Below are positions 44,601-50,600 of a stretch of 64,000 bases of DNA, in pieces. Source of the DNA: Escherichia coli (GTDB lineage Bacteria > Pseudomonadota > Gammaproteobacteria > Enterobacterales > Enterobacteriaceae); the NCBI RefSeq assembly GCF_044324875.1, contig NZ_CP172185.1. The stretch is one strand, 5' to 3'. The position numbers were made by a program. Positions within the stretch are counted from its first letter, which is position 1. Each line of letters begins with the position of its first letter.

Positions 44601-47600
44601 GCAGTGGCACTGGAAAGGTCAGGATGCGCCGGGCGAAGCGCGTAACGACGGCGAAATTCTGGCGGGTATCTACCATCATCTGCGCGAGCTGTACCAGGCC
44701 GAAGGTGGTAAAGGCGTAGAACCGCTGATGAAGATGAGCTGGAACTACAAGCAGCCGCACGAACCGCAGTCTGACGAAGTGGCGAAAGAGAATAACGGCT
44801 ATGCGCTGGAAGATCTCTATGATGCTAATGGCGTGCTGATTGCGAAGAAAGGTCAGTTGCTGAGTAGCTTTGCGCATCTGCGTGATGACGGTACAACCGC
44901 ATCTTCTTGCTGGATCTACACCGGTAGCTGGACAGAGCAGGGCAACCAGATGGCTAACCGCGATAACTCCGACCCGTCCGGTCTGGGGAATACGCTGGGA
45001 TGGGCCTGGGCGTGGCCGCTCAACCGTCGCGTACTCTACAACCGTGCTTCGGTGGATATCAACGGTAAACCGTGGGATCCGAAACGGATGCTGATCCAGT
45101 GGAACGGCAGCAAGTGGACGGGTAACGATATTCCGGACTTCGGCAATGCCGCACCGGGTACGCCAACCGGGCCGTTTATCATGCAGCCGGAAGGGATGGG
45201 ACGCCTGTTTGCCATCAACAAAATGGCGGAAGGTCCGTTCCCGGAGCACTACGAGCCAATTGAAACGCCGCTGGGCACTAACCCGCTGCATCCGAACGTG
45301 GTGTCTAACCCGGTGGTTCGTCTGTATGAACAAGACGCGCTGCGGATGGGTAAAAAAGAGCAGTTCCCGTATGTGGGTACGACCTATCGTCTGACCGAGC
45401 ACTTCCACACCTGGACCAAGCACGCGTTGCTCAACGCAATTGCTCAGCCGGAACAGTTTGTGGAAATCAGCGAAACGCTGGCGGCGGCGAAAGGCATTAA
45501 TAATGGCGATCGTGTCACTGTCTCAAGCAAGCGTGGCTTTATCCGGGCGGTGGCGGTGGTAACGCGCCGTCTGAAACCGCTGAATGTAAACGGTCAGCAG
45601 GTTGAAACGGTGGGTATTCCAATCCACTGGGGCTTTGAGGGTGTCGCGCGTAAAGGTTATATCGCTAACACTCTGACGCCGAATGTCGGTGATGCAAACT
45701 CGCAAACGCCGGAATATAAAGCGTTCTTAGTAAACATCGAGAAGGCGTAAGGGGGCGAACAGATGGCTATGGAAACGCAGGACATTATCAAAAGGTCCGC
45801 AACTAACTCCATCACGCCGCCTTCTCAGGTGCGTGATTACAAAGCAGAAGTCGCGAAACTTATCGACGTTTCCACCTGTATCGGTTGTAAAGCCTGTCAG
45901 GTGGCGTGTTCGGAGTGGAACGACATCCGTGATGAAGTGGGGCACTGCGTCGGGGTTTACGATAACCCCGCCGATCTGAGCGCCAAGTCCTGGACGGTGA
46001 TGCGCTTTAGCGAAACCGAACAGAACGGCAAGCTGGAGTGGCTGATCCGTAAAGACGGCTGTATGCACTGTGAAGATCCGGGCTGCCTGAAGGCGTGCCC
46101 GTCTGCTGGTGCAATCATTCAGTACGCTAACGGGATTGTCGATTTCCAGTCGGAAAACTGCATCGGCTGTGGTTACTGCATTGCCGGGTGTCCGTTTAAT
46201 ATTCCGCGCCTCAACAAAGAGGATAACCGGGTATATAAATGCACGCTCTGCGTCGATCGCGTCAGCGTCGGCCAGGAACCGGCTTGTGTGAAAACCTGTC
46301 CGACCGGGGCTATCCACTTCGGCACCAAGAAGGAGATGCTGGAGCTGGCGGAACAGCGCGTGGCGAAACTGAAAGCGCGTGGTTACGAACATGCTGGCGT
46401 CTACAACCCGGAAGGGGTCGGTGGTACGCACGTTATGTACGTGCTGCATCACGCCGATCAGCCGGAGCTGTATCACGGTCTGCCGAAAGATCCGAAGATC
46501 GACACCTCGGTAAGCCTGTGGAAAGGCGCGTTGAAACCGCTGGCAGCGGCTGGCTTTATTGCCACTTTTGCCGGGTTGATTTTCCACTACATCGGTATTG
46601 GCCCGAATAAGGAAGTGGACGATGACGAGGAGGATCATCATGAGTAAGTCGAAAATGATTGTGCGCACCAAATTTATTGATCGCGCCTGTCACTGGACCG
46701 TGGTGATTTGCTTCTTCCTGGTGGCGCTGTCCGGGATTTCGTTCTTCTTCCCGACGCTGCAATGGCTGACGCAAACCTTCGGTACGCCGCAGATGGGACG
46801 CATTTTGCACCCGTTCTTCGGCATTGCGATTTTCGTCGCGCTGATGTTTATGTTTGTGCGTTTTGTGCATCACAACATCCCGGATAAGAAAGATATTCCG
46901 TGGCTGTTGGACATTGTCGAAGTATTAAAAGGCAATGAGCACAAAGTGGCGGATGTCGGTAAGTACAACGCCGGGCAAAAGATGATGTTCTGGTCGATCA
47001 TGAGCATGATTTTCGTGCTGCTGGTGACCGGGGTGATTATCTGGCGTCCGTACTTTGCGCAGTACTTCCCGATACAGGTTGTCCGTTATAGCCTGCTGAT
47101 CCACGCGGCTGCGGGTATCATCCTGATCCACGCCATCCTGATCCATATGTATATGGCATTCTGGGTGAAAGGATCGATTAAAGGGATGATCGAAGGAAAG
47201 GTGAGCCGTCGCTGGGCGAAGAAACACCATCCACGCTGGTATCGTGAAATCGAGAAGGCGGAAGCGAAAAAAGAGAGTGAAGAAGGGATATAATCTCTTT
47301 TGAACTTTAAGCTGAAAATGGCGCTGTAAAAGGCGTCATTTTCATATTGTAGACAACGTAGGCTTTGTTCATGCCGGATGCGGCGTGACGCCTTATCCGG
47401 CCTACAAACCCTTCAAATCCAATAGATTGCAGTGAACTTGTAGGCCTGATAAGCGTAGCGCATCAGGCAATGTTGCGTTTGTCATCAGTTCTAAATGGCG
47501 CTTTATAAAGCGCCATTTTTTTGTGCACAGAAAACCCCCAGCTAGGCTGGGGGTTCCGGAAAGCTTTCAGCTTTGAGCCAGTTATTAAAACCCCTTTTGA

Positions 47601-50600
47601 TTTGTTAAAACACCTTGCGGTCTGGCAACTGCAAGTGTCAAACAAGAAATCAAAAGGGGGTCCCAATGGGGAACGAAAAGAGCTTAGCGCACACCCGATG
47701 GAACTGTAAATATCACATAGTATTTGCGCCAAAATACCGAAGACAGGTGTTCTACAGAGAGAAGCGTAGAGCAATAGGCTGTATTTTGAGAAAGCTGTGT
47801 GAGTGGAAAAGTGTACGGATTCTGGAAGCTGAATGCTGTGCAGATCATATCCATATGCTTGTGGAGATCCCGCCCAAAATGAGCGTATCAGGCTTTATGG
47901 GATATCTGAAAGGGAAAAGCAGTCTGATGCTTTACGAGCAGTTTGGTGATTTGAAATTCAAATACAGGAACAGGGAGTTCTGGTGCAGAGGGTATTACGT
48001 CGATACGGTGGGTAAGAACACGGCGAAGATACAGGATTACATAAAGCACCAGCTTGAAGAGGATAAAATGGGAGAGCAGTTATCGATTCCCTATCCGGGC
48101 AGCCCGTTTACGGGCCGTAAGTAACGAAGTTGGATGCAAATGTCAGATCGTGTGCGCCTGTTAGGGCGCGGCTGGTAAGAGAGCCTTATAGGCGCATTTG
48201 AAAAACCTCCGGCTATGCCGGAGGATATTTATTATTGCGTAACCAGACGGCGCAGTCGCGACACATCCACCGTTTTTTCTGCCTCTGCCAGACTCCAGGC
48301 GTTTTGCAGATTCAGCCACATTTGCGGCGAACTGCCGATCACCACGGAAAGTTTAATTGCCATTTCTGGCGTCAAAGCTGCTTTTCCGGTCAGCAATCGG
48401 CTTGCCGTTGAGGGCGCAATTTCCATTGCTCTGGCAAACTCGCGCAGGCTGACATTAAGTTCGTCCAGTGATTCCTGAATAATGTCCCCCGGGCGGGGAT
48501 GATTGGCCATTTTCATCAGTGATAGTCCTCGTAATCCAGTATGTATGCATCGCCATTGACGAATTCAAATGTGATTCGCCAGTTGCCCGAGACAGATATC
48601 GCCCAAATTCCATCGCGATCACCGCTTAACGGGTGTAGTCGGTAACCGGGCATATCGATATCAGCAAGACAGCTTGCTGCATCAATCACAGCGAGTCGGT
48701 GGCGTAATCGTTTGACTTGCGTCGGTATAACGCCGGAGGTGTTGCCGAGAAGAAACAAGTCACGCAATCCCTTGTGTCTGAAATTCATTATCATCTCTTC
48801 ATCCTTGTTCCTTCAAAAGGAACACTATCACTATTGTTCCGTGCAGCGCAACAAATTTCGCTACGTTTTCGCGAATTGTGAGGGGAAAGATGGGGGAGGA
48901 AAAGAAGAAGAGTGAAATTGCGGAAAGCGTCTCGCAAAACAGGCTGCGACCCGAACATGGCAGTCGCAGCAAAGGCCTCTTAGCGGCGGAAATCAATCAC
49001 CATACGGCCACGGATTTTGCCTTCTTCCATCTCGGTAAAGATGGTGTTGATGTCCGCTAACGGACGCAGGGCGACTTTCGGCACCACTTTGCCTTCGGCC
49101 GCAAACTGGAAGGCTTCGGTTAGATCCTGGCGCGTGCCGACCAGCGAACCGACCACTTCAATACCATCCAGCACAAGGCGTGGGATGTCCAGGCTCATAG
49201 ACTCCGGCGGCAGACCGACAGCCACAACACGACCGCCTGCTCGTACAGCATCAACCGCCGAGTTAAACGCAGCTTTAGCTACCGCTGTCACCACCGCGGC
49301 GTGAGCGCCACCGGTTTTTTCTTGCACAATTTTGGCGGCGTCTTCGGTGCGTGAGTTAATCGCTAAATCTGCACCCATTTCGGTTGCCAGTTTCAACTGC
49401 TCATCATTGACATCAATGGCGATCACTTTGGCGTTAAAGACATTCTTCGCGTATTGCAGGGCGAGGTTACCCAGACCGCCAAGACCGTAGATAGCAATCC
49501 ACTGCCCTGGACGAATTTTTGACAGCTTAACGGCTTTGTAGGTGGTGACCCCCGCACAGGTAATGCTGCTGGCCGCCGCCGAGTCCAGACCATCTGGCAC
49601 TTTTACCGCGTAATCGGCGACCACGATGCACTCTTCCGCCATCCCGCCATCAACGCTGTATCCGGCATTTTTAACTGAACGGCAGAGCGTTTCGTTACCA
49701 CTGTTACAGTATTCGCAATGACCGCATCCTTCGTAAAACCACGCCACGCTGGCACGATCGCCTGGTTTTAATGAGGTGACACCTGGGCCAACTTCTGCCA
49801 CCACACCGATGCCTTCATGGCCCAGAATTACGCCGGTTTTGTCACCAAAATCGCCATTCTTAACATGAAGATCGGTGTGACATACACCACAACACTCCAT
49901 TTTCAGCAGGGCTTCGCCATGTTTCAGTGAGCGCAGTGTTTTATCCGTAACGTCAACATGATGATCCTTCGTAACAACTGCAGCCTTCATAGTTCCTCCT
50001 TTTCGGATGATGTTCTGCATAGCAGGTGAGGCAAATGAGATTTATTCGCCACTACCCAGTATGGATGAGATCTGAAAAAGGGAGAGGGAAATTGCCCGGT
50101 AGCCTTCACTACCGGGCGCAGGCTTAGATGGAGGTACGGCGGTAGTCGCGGTATTCGGCCTGCCAGAAATTATCATCAATGGCCTGTTGCAGAGCTTCGG
50201 CGGAGGTTTTCACCGCCACGCCTTGCTGCTGCGCCATTTTGCCAACCGCAAAGGCAATTGCGCGGGAGACTTTCTGAATATCTTTCAGTTCCGGTAGTAC
50301 CAGACCTTCGCCGTTCAGGACCAGCGGCGAATACTGAGCAAGCGTTTCACTTGCCGACATCAGCATCTCATCGGTGATACGTGACGCGCCGGAAGCAATA
50401 ACGCCCAGCCCGATGCCCGGGAAAATAAAGGCGTTGTTACACTGGGCGATAGGGTAGATTTTATCTTTCCATACCACTGGGTTAAACGGACTGCCAGTGG
50501 CGACCAGCGCGTTACCTTCAGTCCAGGCGATAATGTCCTGCGGTGTGGCTTCCACGCGTGAAGTCGGGTTAGACAGCGGCATCACGATCGGACGCGGACA

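What the first reader, a model, noticed from the sequence alone, without database searches (positions are those of the whole stretch)
47504..48210. IS200 inserted between fdnGHI and the toxin-antitoxin pair
A 152-aa Y1 transposase gene is preceded by the characteristic stem-loop that buries its ribosome-binding site. The element is absent from this position in K-12 as far as I recall. Exact ends are not resolved because IS200 lacks inverted repeats and target duplications.
Basis: partly seen in the sequence, partly recalled or inferred. Interest (0 to 1): 0.4.

Follow-up and report, generated by a model that had tools for sequence, protein, structure and literature searches.

The report
Complete IS200C insertion sequence, ends resolved

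Summary
The finding is real and correctly identified. tnpA (47666-48124, +) encodes a 152-aa Y1/HUH transposase. It matches Pfam Y1_Tnp (E 1.9e-37) and NCBIfam transpos_IS200 (145.9 bits, cut-off 55), and has HUH at H61/H63 and Y125. The gene is preceded by the IS200 leader, which matches Rfam STnc490 at 146 bits. In that leader a stem-loop (47591-47659) sequesters the Shine-Dalgarno sequence AAGGGGGT.

K-12 has an empty site here. 302 of 5426 complete E. coli genomes carry an annotated IS200C between fdnI and yddM.

The ends can be resolved. Six independent E. coli insertions compared with their K-12 empty sites, plus alignment to Salmonella IS200F and Yersinia IS1541, place the element at 47523-48233 (711 bp).

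- The last two bases of the element (TT) rebuild the yddM stop codon, so yddM is unchanged.

In passing: IS200-group elements in many phyla sit directly after a terminator-like hairpin plus T-run, which resembles their own right end.

Verdict: already known, low interest.

The parts
47493..47522 (+). Host intrinsic-terminator-like hairpin (AAATGGCGCTTTATAAAGCGCCATTT) plus T-run. It is the insertion target, not part of the IS.
   Evidence: Present in the empty K-12 site as AAATGGCGCTTTATAAAGTGCCATTTTTTT|ATTGCG. Picked up by the terminator scan. As ssDNA it folds at -12 kcal/mol, z -6.4.
47523..48233 (+). Complete IS200C element, 711 bp (GTGCACAG...GGATATTTATT)
   Evidence: After removal of a 709-bp core (47523-48231), the flanks of four of six independent E. 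coli sites are exactly 2 nt (TT) longer than the K-12 empty site, so the inserted DNA is 711 bp. Similarity to Salmonella IS200F (91.4%), Y. pestis IS1541 (87.6%) and an Edwardsiella copy (88.3%) starts at the G and stops after TTATT. The 709-bp core is 100% identical to a copy annotated IS200C in strain MCJCHV-1.
47530..47534 (+). GAAAA immediately 5' of the left-end hairpin. Candidate left guide sequence, complementary to the T-run target (inferred).
   Evidence: Inverted repeat I11, TTTTTTGTGCAC/GTGCACAGAAAA. GAAAAC is conserved before the hairpin in elements from many taxa, while the 5 bases before it vary. The analogy is to IS608 guide/target pairing (PMC5934647, abstract seen).
47533..47555 (+). 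Left-end subterminal hairpin AACCCCCAGC-TAG-GCTGGGGGTT. It corresponds to the IS200 'nt 12-34' bidirectional terminator.
   Evidence: 10-bp perfect stem. First helix of Rfam STnc490. The position matches Ellis et al. 2015, PMC4513863. Its 17-mer core is found in elements across many phyla.
47591..47659 (+). [quoted passage not shown]
   Evidence: RNA fold. Inverted repeat I2, 16 nt, 94% complementary. Rfam alignment. Equals 'nt 69-138' of IS200 in PMC4513863.
47585..47675 (-). [quoted passage not shown] Placed by homology only.
   Evidence: Mapped from PMC4513863: transcription start at IS nt 153/154, complementary through the third codon. No sigma-70-like promoter was found by the consensus scan, so this is inferred, not shown.
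47666..48124 (+). tnpA, 152-aa Y1 (HUH) transposase. HUH at H61-I-H63; catalytic Tyr at Y125 (QDYIKHQ).
   Evidence: Homologous to the solved TnpA structures 2EC2, 2F4F, IS608 2A6M/2VJV and ISDra2 2XM3 (E 1e-22 to 1e-14), with the HUH and Y-x3-Q motifs aligned. A Y125F mutant is listed as catalytically dead in PMC4513863.
48153..48196 (+). Imperfect inner hairpin of the right end (TGCGCCTGTTAGG...CCTTATAGGCGCA). Role unknown.
   Evidence: Inverted repeat I12. Forms in the ssDNA fold. Conserved in IS200F and IS1541.
48206..48224 (+). Right-end subterminal hairpin CCTCCGGC-TAT-GCCGGAGG, preceded by GAAAAA (48201-48205, candidate right guide)
   Evidence: Similar to the left-end hairpin (CCCCCAGC-TAG-GCTGGGGG). 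In Ruminococcus and related elements the right-end hairpin is identical to the left-end one. Read on the minus strand it is followed by TTTTTC, so it looks like a terminator for yddM.
48225..48233 (+). Right-end tail ATATTTATT. The element ends 9 nt after the hairpin.
   Evidence: Invariant before divergent flanks in the window, IS200F, five IS1541 copies and Edwardsiella. Tandem IS1541 copies read ...GGATATTTATT|GTGCCCAG. In L126 the left flank ends in CT but the right end still ends in TT, so the TT is not a target duplication.
48232..48516 (-). yddM (HigA-family antitoxin). Its stop codon TAA is the complement of 48232-48234 and uses the last two bases of the IS.
   Evidence: The protein is identical to K-12 YddM. 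In K-12 the same codon uses the last two T of the terminator T-run.
48516..48794 (-). HigB-like toxin gene (92 aa), partner of yddM. Context only.
   Evidence: Pfam PF05015, E 2.7e-17. Annotated as a RelE/ParE family toxin in RefSeq genomes. Absent in K-12 and strain 7/2.

Best explanation
This is a complete copy of IS200C, a member of the IS200 group of the IS200/IS605 family. It contains only tnpA and no tnpB.

The element was inserted at the 3' end of the T-run of the terminator hairpin shared by the convergent genes fdnI and yddM. tnpA points away from that hairpin.

How it works, by homology to IS200, IS608 and ISDra2:
- A dimer of the Y1/HUH transposase TnpA binds the two subterminal hairpins on the top strand when it is single-stranded.
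- It cuts just before G47523 and just after T48233, releasing a single-stranded circle.
- It pastes the circle 3' of a T-rich target. No inverted repeats are involved and no target duplication is made.

Expression is kept very low by four features: the host terminator just upstream, the left-end hairpin, the leader stem-loop that hides the ribosome-binding site, and (inferred) the antisense RNA art200 together with Hfq.

Shown here: the identity of the element, intact ORF and motifs, both end structures, the exact inserted segment, the empty site, and the unchanged neighbouring genes. Inferred: the transposition chemistry, guide/target pairing (GAAAA with the T-run), art200 expression, and whether this copy is still mobile.
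For: Protein.
Leader RNA.
Boundaries and empty sites.
End hairpins.
RefSeq annotation 'IS200/IS605-like element IS200C family transposase' at the same fdnI-yddM site in 302 of 5426 complete E. coli genomes.
Full-length copies occur in 2063 genomes, with up to 35 places per genome, and a 100% identical copy lies at emrB-luxS in another strain. This argues for recent mobility.
IS200 anatomy (terminator nt 12-34, stem-loop nt 69-138, art200 start at nt 153/154, Y125F catalytically dead, SD AAGGGGGU) comes from PMC4513863 and maps onto the window if nt 1 is about 47522.
Single-strand 'peel and paste' mechanism: PMC5027513, PMC3597680 and PMC5934647.
Against: - Nothing contradicts the identification.
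- No ISfinder reference sequence was available, so the name 'IS200C' rests on RefSeq/PGAP naming of identical copies.
- The published Salmonella IS200 length is 707 bp, against 711 bp here. The difference lies in how the flanking T's are assigned and in small indels.
- No transposition, RNA or protein data exist for this copy.
- The consensus scan found no sigma-70-like promoter.
Confidence: 0.95

Rival explanations
1. The copy is structurally complete but effectively immobile. Its main present-day role would be as a source of small RNAs: the processed tnpA 5' leader and antisense art200, which act on host genes in Salmonella.
For: IS200 is described as dormant and as an ancestral genome component, and its 5' leader RNA regulates invF and virulence regulons in Salmonella (abstracts of PMC12594629 and PMC5435999; PMC4513863). 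The leader here matches the Rfam model over its full length at 146 bits.
Against: Presence at this site is polymorphic: 302 of 5426 genomes. Identical copies sit at different loci, and some genomes hold up to 35 places. Both observations point to transposition in recent E. coli history. No RNA data were available here. The Salmonella target invF has no stated E. coli counterpart in what I read.
Confidence: 0.25
2. The element is 709 bp (47523-48231), and the TT on each side is a 2-bp target-site duplication rather than part of the right end.
For: Nearly all left flanks end in TT and all right junctions read TT, so sequence alone is almost degenerate between the two readings.
Against: In Y. pestis locus L126 the left flank ends in CT, yet the right end still ends in ...TTATT. 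The family's single-strand cut-and-paste chemistry makes no staggered cuts (PMC5027513). In this family the right cleavage site normally resembles the left target (TTATT against TTTTT).
Confidence: 0.08
3. Only a decayed transposase gene fragment, without functional IS200 ends.
For: None found.
Against: The ORF is full length with HUH and Y125. Both subterminal hairpins and both termini are conserved against IS200F and IS1541. The inserted DNA relative to the empty site is a full 711 bp.
Confidence: 0.01
4. A REP-associated tyrosine transposase (RAYT) belonging to the neighbouring REP/BIME sequences, rather than an insertion sequence.
For: REP/BIME copies lie at 47367-47470 just upstream. RAYTs are distant relatives of TnpA, and there is a weak NCBIfam match.
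Against: The REP_Tyr_transpos score is 31.4 bits against a cut-off of 80, whereas transpos_IS200 scores 145.9 against 55. The REP/BIME unit is present in K-12 without the transposase. The gene moves with its own 711-bp unit to sites that have no REP.
Confidence: 0.01

Closest known systems
IS200C (E. coli variant of IS200, as named in RefSeq/PGAP annotation)
   Same: The 709-bp core is 100% identical to a copy annotated IS200C in strain MCJCHV-1, and 99-99.9% identical to many others. 302 complete genomes carry the element at the same fdnI-yddM site.
   Different: Nothing in the element itself. Among complete genomes the flank differs: the best matches lack the 177/178-bp hairpin+BIME unit that the window has once and K-12 has twice.
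Salmonella IS200 (IS200F; the experimentally studied element)
   Same: 91.4% DNA identity end to end. Same left-end hairpin, SD-sequestering stem-loop, SD AAGGGGGT, 152-aa TnpA with Y125, and right-end hairpin plus ATATTTATT.
   Different: About 9% sequence divergence. The first ~12 bases differ (GTCTATGGAAAA against GTGCACAGAAAA). The published length is 707 bp, against 711 bp by my junction assignment.
IS1541 (Yersinia pestis / pseudotuberculosis)
   Same: 87.6% identity and the same architecture. Also inserted after a hairpin plus T-run.
   Different: High copy number, with head-to-tail tandem copies in Y. pestis. Only one copy is present in this window.
IS608 (H. pylori) and ISDra2 (D. radiodurans), the mechanistic paradigms of the IS200/IS605 family
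   Same: Homologous TnpA (E about 1e-18 and 4e-16) with HUH and catalytic Tyr. Subterminal hairpins instead of terminal inverted repeats. No target duplication. Insertion 3' of a short specific sequence.
   Different: Those elements also carry tnpB and target TTAC or TTGAT. IS200C has tnpA only. Its sites are T-runs that follow a hairpin, and it has an elaborate translational-repression leader.
REP-associated tyrosine transposases (RAYT / TnpA-REP)
   Same: Distantly related Y1 HUH fold and recognition of hairpins (PMC3333891, abstract).
   Different: Scores below the family cut-off. Not flanked by inverted REPs. Behaves as a discrete 711-bp mobile unit.

Membership tests
IS200/IS605 family, IS200 group | Encodes a Y1 HUH transposase (TnpA) with an HUH motif and a single catalytic tyrosine | tested here: met
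   Pfam Y1_Tnp at E 1.9e-37. NCBIfam transpos_IS200 equivalog at 145.9 bits against a cut-off of 55. H61-I-H63 and Y125-x3-Q129. Aligned to solved TnpA structures.
IS200/IS605 family, IS200 group | About 0.7 kb with tnpA as the only gene (no tnpB) | tested here: met
   711 bp are inserted relative to the empty sites, and tnpA occupies 459 of them.
IS200/IS605 family, IS200 group | Subterminal hairpins at both ends instead of terminal inverted repeats | tested here: met
   Left hairpin 47533-47555 and right hairpin 48206-48224. They have similar sequences, fold stably as ssDNA (z -4.0 and -4.8), and are conserved in IS200F and IS1541. The termini GTGCAC... and ...TTTATT are not inverted repeats of each other.
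IS200/IS605 family, IS200 group | No target-site duplication; insertion 3' of a short conserved sequence | tested here: met
   Six E. coli sites compared with K-12 empty sites. The TT at both junctions is ambiguous on its own, but locus L126 (left flank CT, right end TT) argues against a duplication. The left flank is T-rich in 79 of 86 unique sites.
IS200 proper (Salmonella / E. coli / Yersinia lineage) | Leader with a terminator hairpin near nt 12-34 and an SD-sequestering stem-loop near nt 69-138 | tested here: met
   Full-length Rfam RF01405 match at 146.4 bits. Fold. The coordinates agree with PMC4513863.
IS200 proper (Salmonella / E. coli / Yersinia lineage) | Antisense sRNA art200 expressed opposite the leader | not testable with these tools
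   The complementary sequence is necessarily present. No expression data exist, and the consensus promoter scan found nothing.
IS200C isoform (ISfinder name) | Near-identity to the ISfinder IS200C reference | not testable with these tools
   ISfinder is not available here. The indirect evidence is 100% identity to copies that RefSeq/PGAP names IS200C.
IS200/IS605 family | Strand-specific single-strand excision and integration catalysed by TnpA | not testable with these tools
   Biochemical property, inferred from homology to IS608 and ISDra2.
RAYT / REP-associated transposase | Scores above the family cut-off and is flanked by inverted REPs | tested here: not met
   31.4 bits against a cut-off of 80. 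The REPs lie on one side only and are present in the empty K-12 site.

The most novel reading that the evidence does not exclude
IS200-group transposases may select their targets by structure. They would insert 3' of any GC-rich hairpin followed by a T-run, that is, an intrinsic terminator, for two reasons. First, such a site mimics the element's own right end (hairpin + ATATTTATT). Second, the conserved GAAAA next to the left-end hairpin can pair with the T-run.

This would explain why these elements are nearly harmless, sit at gene 3' ends across phyla, form tandem copies, and are insulated from read-through.

The association is strong in my sample: 73 of 86 unique sites have both features, against 3 of 1720 random positions, and only 6.8% of T-rich sites outside long ORFs have a hairpin. 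However, selection against harmful insertions is not excluded. Enrichment of terminators upstream of IS200/IS605 elements has already been reported in a 2025-26 preprint, and older IS1541 and IS200 papers that I could not read may describe it too.
Probability: 0.25. Interest if true: 0.45.

Novelty: already known. Interest (0 to 1): 0.12.

Why it matters
For genome annotation, the result fixes the element's exact boundaries at 47523-48233. It also shows that neither neighbour is damaged: fdnI keeps its terminator, and yddM keeps its stop codon and gains a terminator-like hairpin from the IS right end.

Biologically this is a routine polymorphic IS copy. It could serve as a strain marker, since 302 of 5426 complete E. 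coli genomes have it at this site. It is not a new kind of system.

The only wider point is the side observation that IS200-group elements land behind terminator-like hairpins in very different bacteria. If that is mechanistic, it would be a structural form of target choice in a family otherwise known for short sequence targets.

Tried and rejected
- A first reading of alignment A1 gave a 709-bp insert. Recounting against the K-12 T-run, and then five further empty sites, gave 711 bp.
- Orientation relative to replication: from the K-12 map positions of the six E. coli sites, 4 of 6 copies have their top strand on the lagging-strand template. That is too few to say anything. This is my own reckoning. 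The window's GC skew is weak, +0.018.
- The sigma-70 consensus scan found no promoter for tnpA or art200. A candidate art200 promoter that I read by eye (TTTACA, 18 nt, TAAGCT on the minus strand at 47710-47681) could not be checked against the paper, which does not give the sequences in its text.
- Literature on IS200 and IS1541 target choice: Odaert 1998, He 2015, Siguier 2014 and Cornelius 2009 are not held. The supplement of PMC4513863 with the mapped de novo hops is not held either. So I could not establish whether terminator targeting has been described or tested experimentally.
- The RAYT reading and the fragment reading were both rejected.
Salmonella and E. coli chromosomes were not among the loci returned.

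
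Full report
**1. What is there**

The region holds one long ORF on the + strand. From its ATG at 47666 to the stop at 48124 it encodes 152 aa.
- It matches Pfam Y1_Tnp (PF01797) at E 1.9e-37 over the whole domain.
- It matches the NCBIfam equivalog transpos_IS200 at 145.9 bits against a curated cut-off of 55. The REP-associated transposase model scores only 31.4 against a cut-off of 80.
- It is homologous to the solved TnpA structures of Sulfolobus (2EC2, 2F4F), IS608 (2A6M, 2VJV) and ISDra2 (2XM3), with E from 1e-22 to 1e-14. The HUH motif (DHIHMLV, H61/H63) and the Y-x3-Q motif (QDYIKHQ, Y125) are aligned.
- Y125 is the residue mutated in the catalytically dead control of Ellis et al. 2015 (PMC4513863).

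**2. The leader**

Rfam RF01405 (STnc490) matches 47533-47656 on the + strand over the whole model, at 146.4 bits against a gathering score of 56. Apart from the fdnG SECIS, it is the only Rfam family above threshold in the 64-kb window.
- The first helix is the 10-bp hairpin AACCCCCAGC-TAG-GCTGGGGGTT (47533-47555).
- The long helix pairs 47591-47606 with 47644-47659 and encloses the Shine-Dalgarno AAGGGGGT (47654-47661), 5 nt before the ATG. The fold has MFE -43.9 kcal/mol, z -3.07, and none of 200 shuffles folds as well.
- These positions correspond to the 'nt 12-34 terminator' and the 'nt 69-138 SD-sequestering stem-loop' of Salmonella IS200 if IS nt 1 is about 47522.
- The published antisense RNA art200 would then start at about 47674/47675 on the minus strand. 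That placement is by homology only, and no promoter was detected by the consensus scan.

**3. Empty and filled sites**

K-12 MG1655 has fdnI followed directly by yddM, with no transposase. A 1.2-kb query spanning the fdnI end, the IS and the yddM end is covered at 80% or more in 302 of 5426 complete E. coli genomes. In all 30 listed best hits, RefSeq annotates tnpA there as 'IS200/IS605-like element IS200C family transposase' between fdnI and yddM. The IS alone occurs at full length in 2063 genomes, with up to 35 places per genome and 1287 places on plasmids. One copy, at emrB-luxS in strain MCJCHV-1, is 100% identical to the window's 709-bp core.

**4. The ends**

*Alignment with K-12.* Aligning the window with K-12 shows that the hairpin plus T-run AAATGGCGCTTTATAAAG(C/T)GCCATTTTTTT is present in the empty site and is followed there directly by ATTGCG, the end of yddM. 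In the window the same T-run (ending at 47522) is followed by GTGCACAG..., and ATTGCG is preceded by ...GGATATTTATT.

*Further sites.* I then fetched five more IS200C copies at unrelated loci (emrB-luxS, speC-nupG, pqqU-mcbR, pgm-ybfP, carB-caiF) and their K-12 empty sites. In four of the six sites the flanks left after removing a 709-bp core exceed the empty site by exactly two bases, TT. The other two differ in homopolymer length or by an unrelated indel. The inserted DNA is therefore 711 bp.

*Related elements.* An alignment with Salmonella IS200F (91.4% identity), five Y. pestis IS1541 copies (87.6%) and an Edwardsiella copy (88.3%) shows similarity that begins at the G after the T-run and ends at ...GGATATTTATT. 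Beyond that, all flanks diverge. Head-to-tail IS1541 copies read ...GGATATTTATT|GTGCCCAG. In locus L126 the left flank ends in CT while the right end still ends in TT, which argues that the TT belongs to the element rather than being a duplication.

*Result.* I therefore place the element at 47523-48233.
- That hairpin resembles the left-end hairpin (CCCCCAGC-TAG-GCTGGGGG) and folds stably as ssDNA.
- Two related subterminal hairpins, no terminal inverted repeats and no duplication are the hallmarks of the IS200/IS605 family.

**5. Effect on the neighbours**

fdnI ends at 47293 and keeps its REP/BIME region and the terminator hairpin. The yddM stop codon TAA is the complement of 48232-48234. 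Its first two bases are the last two bases of the IS, whereas in K-12 the same codon uses the last two T of the T-run. The YddM protein is identical in both.

Read on the minus strand, the right-end hairpin is followed by TTTTTC and is picked up as terminator-like. The IS may therefore replace the terminator it displaced from yddM; this is inferred. The insertion thus looks close to neutral.

**6. Mechanism**

By homology, TnpA dimers bind the subterminal hairpins on the single-stranded top strand, excise it as a circle, and insert it 3' of a short target. In IS608 the target is read by base-pairing with a guide sequence next to the left hairpin (PMC5934647).

Here the bases immediately 5' of both hairpins are GAAAA (47530-47534) and GAAAAA (48201-48205). 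The sequences cut are ...TTTTT| on the left flank and ...TTATT| at the right end. The T-run and GTGCACAGAAAA even form an inverted repeat (I11). This fits the family rule but remains an inference.

Expression control by the left-end terminator hairpin, the leader stem-loop, art200 and Hfq is taken from PMC4513863.

**7. Side observation**

They came from Oxalobacter, Peptococcaceae, a Bacillota MAG, Vibrio, Mailhella/Desulfovibrio, Sutterella, Brenneria, Edwardsiella, Y. pestis and others.

| Sites tested | Hairpin of at least 5 bp ending 2-11 nt before the junction | At least 5 T in the last 8 nt | Both |
|---|---|---|---|
| 86 unique left flanks | 80 | 79 | 73 |
| 1720 random positions in the same loci | 120 | 63 | 3 |

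Among T-rich sites outside long ORFs, only 6.8% have such a hairpin. All six E. coli sites follow the same rule.

The target therefore looks like an intrinsic terminator, and also like the element's own right end. A preprint (10.1101/2025.07.22.666184) already reports terminator-like sequences over-represented just upstream of IS200/IS605 elements. I could not read the older IS1541 and IS200 papers. Whether this is targeting or selection remains open.

**8. Verdict**

This is a correct identification of a well-known element. The useful additions are the exact ends, the reassignment of the two flanking hairpins, and the stop-codon detail. Novelty: already known. Interest: low.

Noticed in passing
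Loci L013-L132; window 47493-47522; L003-L007 around position 1500: IS200-group elements from many phyla sit directly 3' of a GC-rich hairpin plus T-run, like an intrinsic terminator. 73 of 86 unique sites have both features, against 3 of 1720 random positions. The 17-nt left-hairpin core is identical across Proteobacteria, Firmicutes, Desulfovibrionaceae, Elusimicrobia and Saccharibacteria MAGs. The target resembles the element's own right end (hairpin + ATATTTATT).
   Followed up: partly
window 48232-48234 (also L005 position 2211): The IS was inserted inside the yddM stop codon. Its terminal TT recreates TAA, so YddM is unchanged. At pqqU-mcbR the IS end likewise overlaps the mcbR stop codon by one base.
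   Followed up: yes
window 47316-47492; L002 1615-2004; L001 around 1560-1596: The fdnI-yddM spacer carries a 177/178-bp unit (terminator-like hairpin + two REPs forming a BIME) in variable copy number: 2.2 copies in K-12, one unit plus the final hairpin in the window, and only the final hairpin in strain 7/2. No complete E. coli genome in the collection combines one unit with the IS (best coverage 88%).
   Followed up: partly
window 48516-48794 (-): A 92-aa HigB-like toxin gene (PF05015, E 2.7e-17) overlaps the start of yddM by one base. It is absent in K-12 and strain 7/2, where yddM is an orphan antitoxin, and present (at least 80% coverage) in 1328 of 5426 complete E. coli genomes. The best match is strain GN25 at 99.9%.
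   Followed up: partly
L118, L119, L121 (Y. pestis NCTC5923); L108 (Mailhella massiliensis): Head-to-tail tandem copies of IS1541/IS200-like elements, with the right end abutting the next left end directly (...GGATATTTATT|GTGCCCAG). This is what is expected if the right end itself is used as a target.
   Followed up: no
window 43285-43343 (+): SECIS element (Rfam RF01989, 84 bits) at the in-frame UGA of fdnG. This explains why the mechanical ORF list starts fdnG only at 43339.
   Followed up: no
window 47533-47656, strand +: The Rfam STnc490 model matches the sense strand of the tnpA leader (146 bits) and not the antisense strand (23.5 bits at 47495-47555). Yet the literature equates STnc490 with the antisense RNA art200. 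The model's strand seems to correspond to the 5' tnpA leader RNA.
   Followed up: no
L027 (Pluralibacter gergoviae), L076 (Brenneria roseae), L092 (Dickeya undicola): These are left-end hairpin copies with the typical terminator-type left flank, but without a full IS200 behind them. In L092 the hairpin is followed by the inverted complement of its own upstream sequence. They may be solo ends or miniature derivatives.
   Followed up: no
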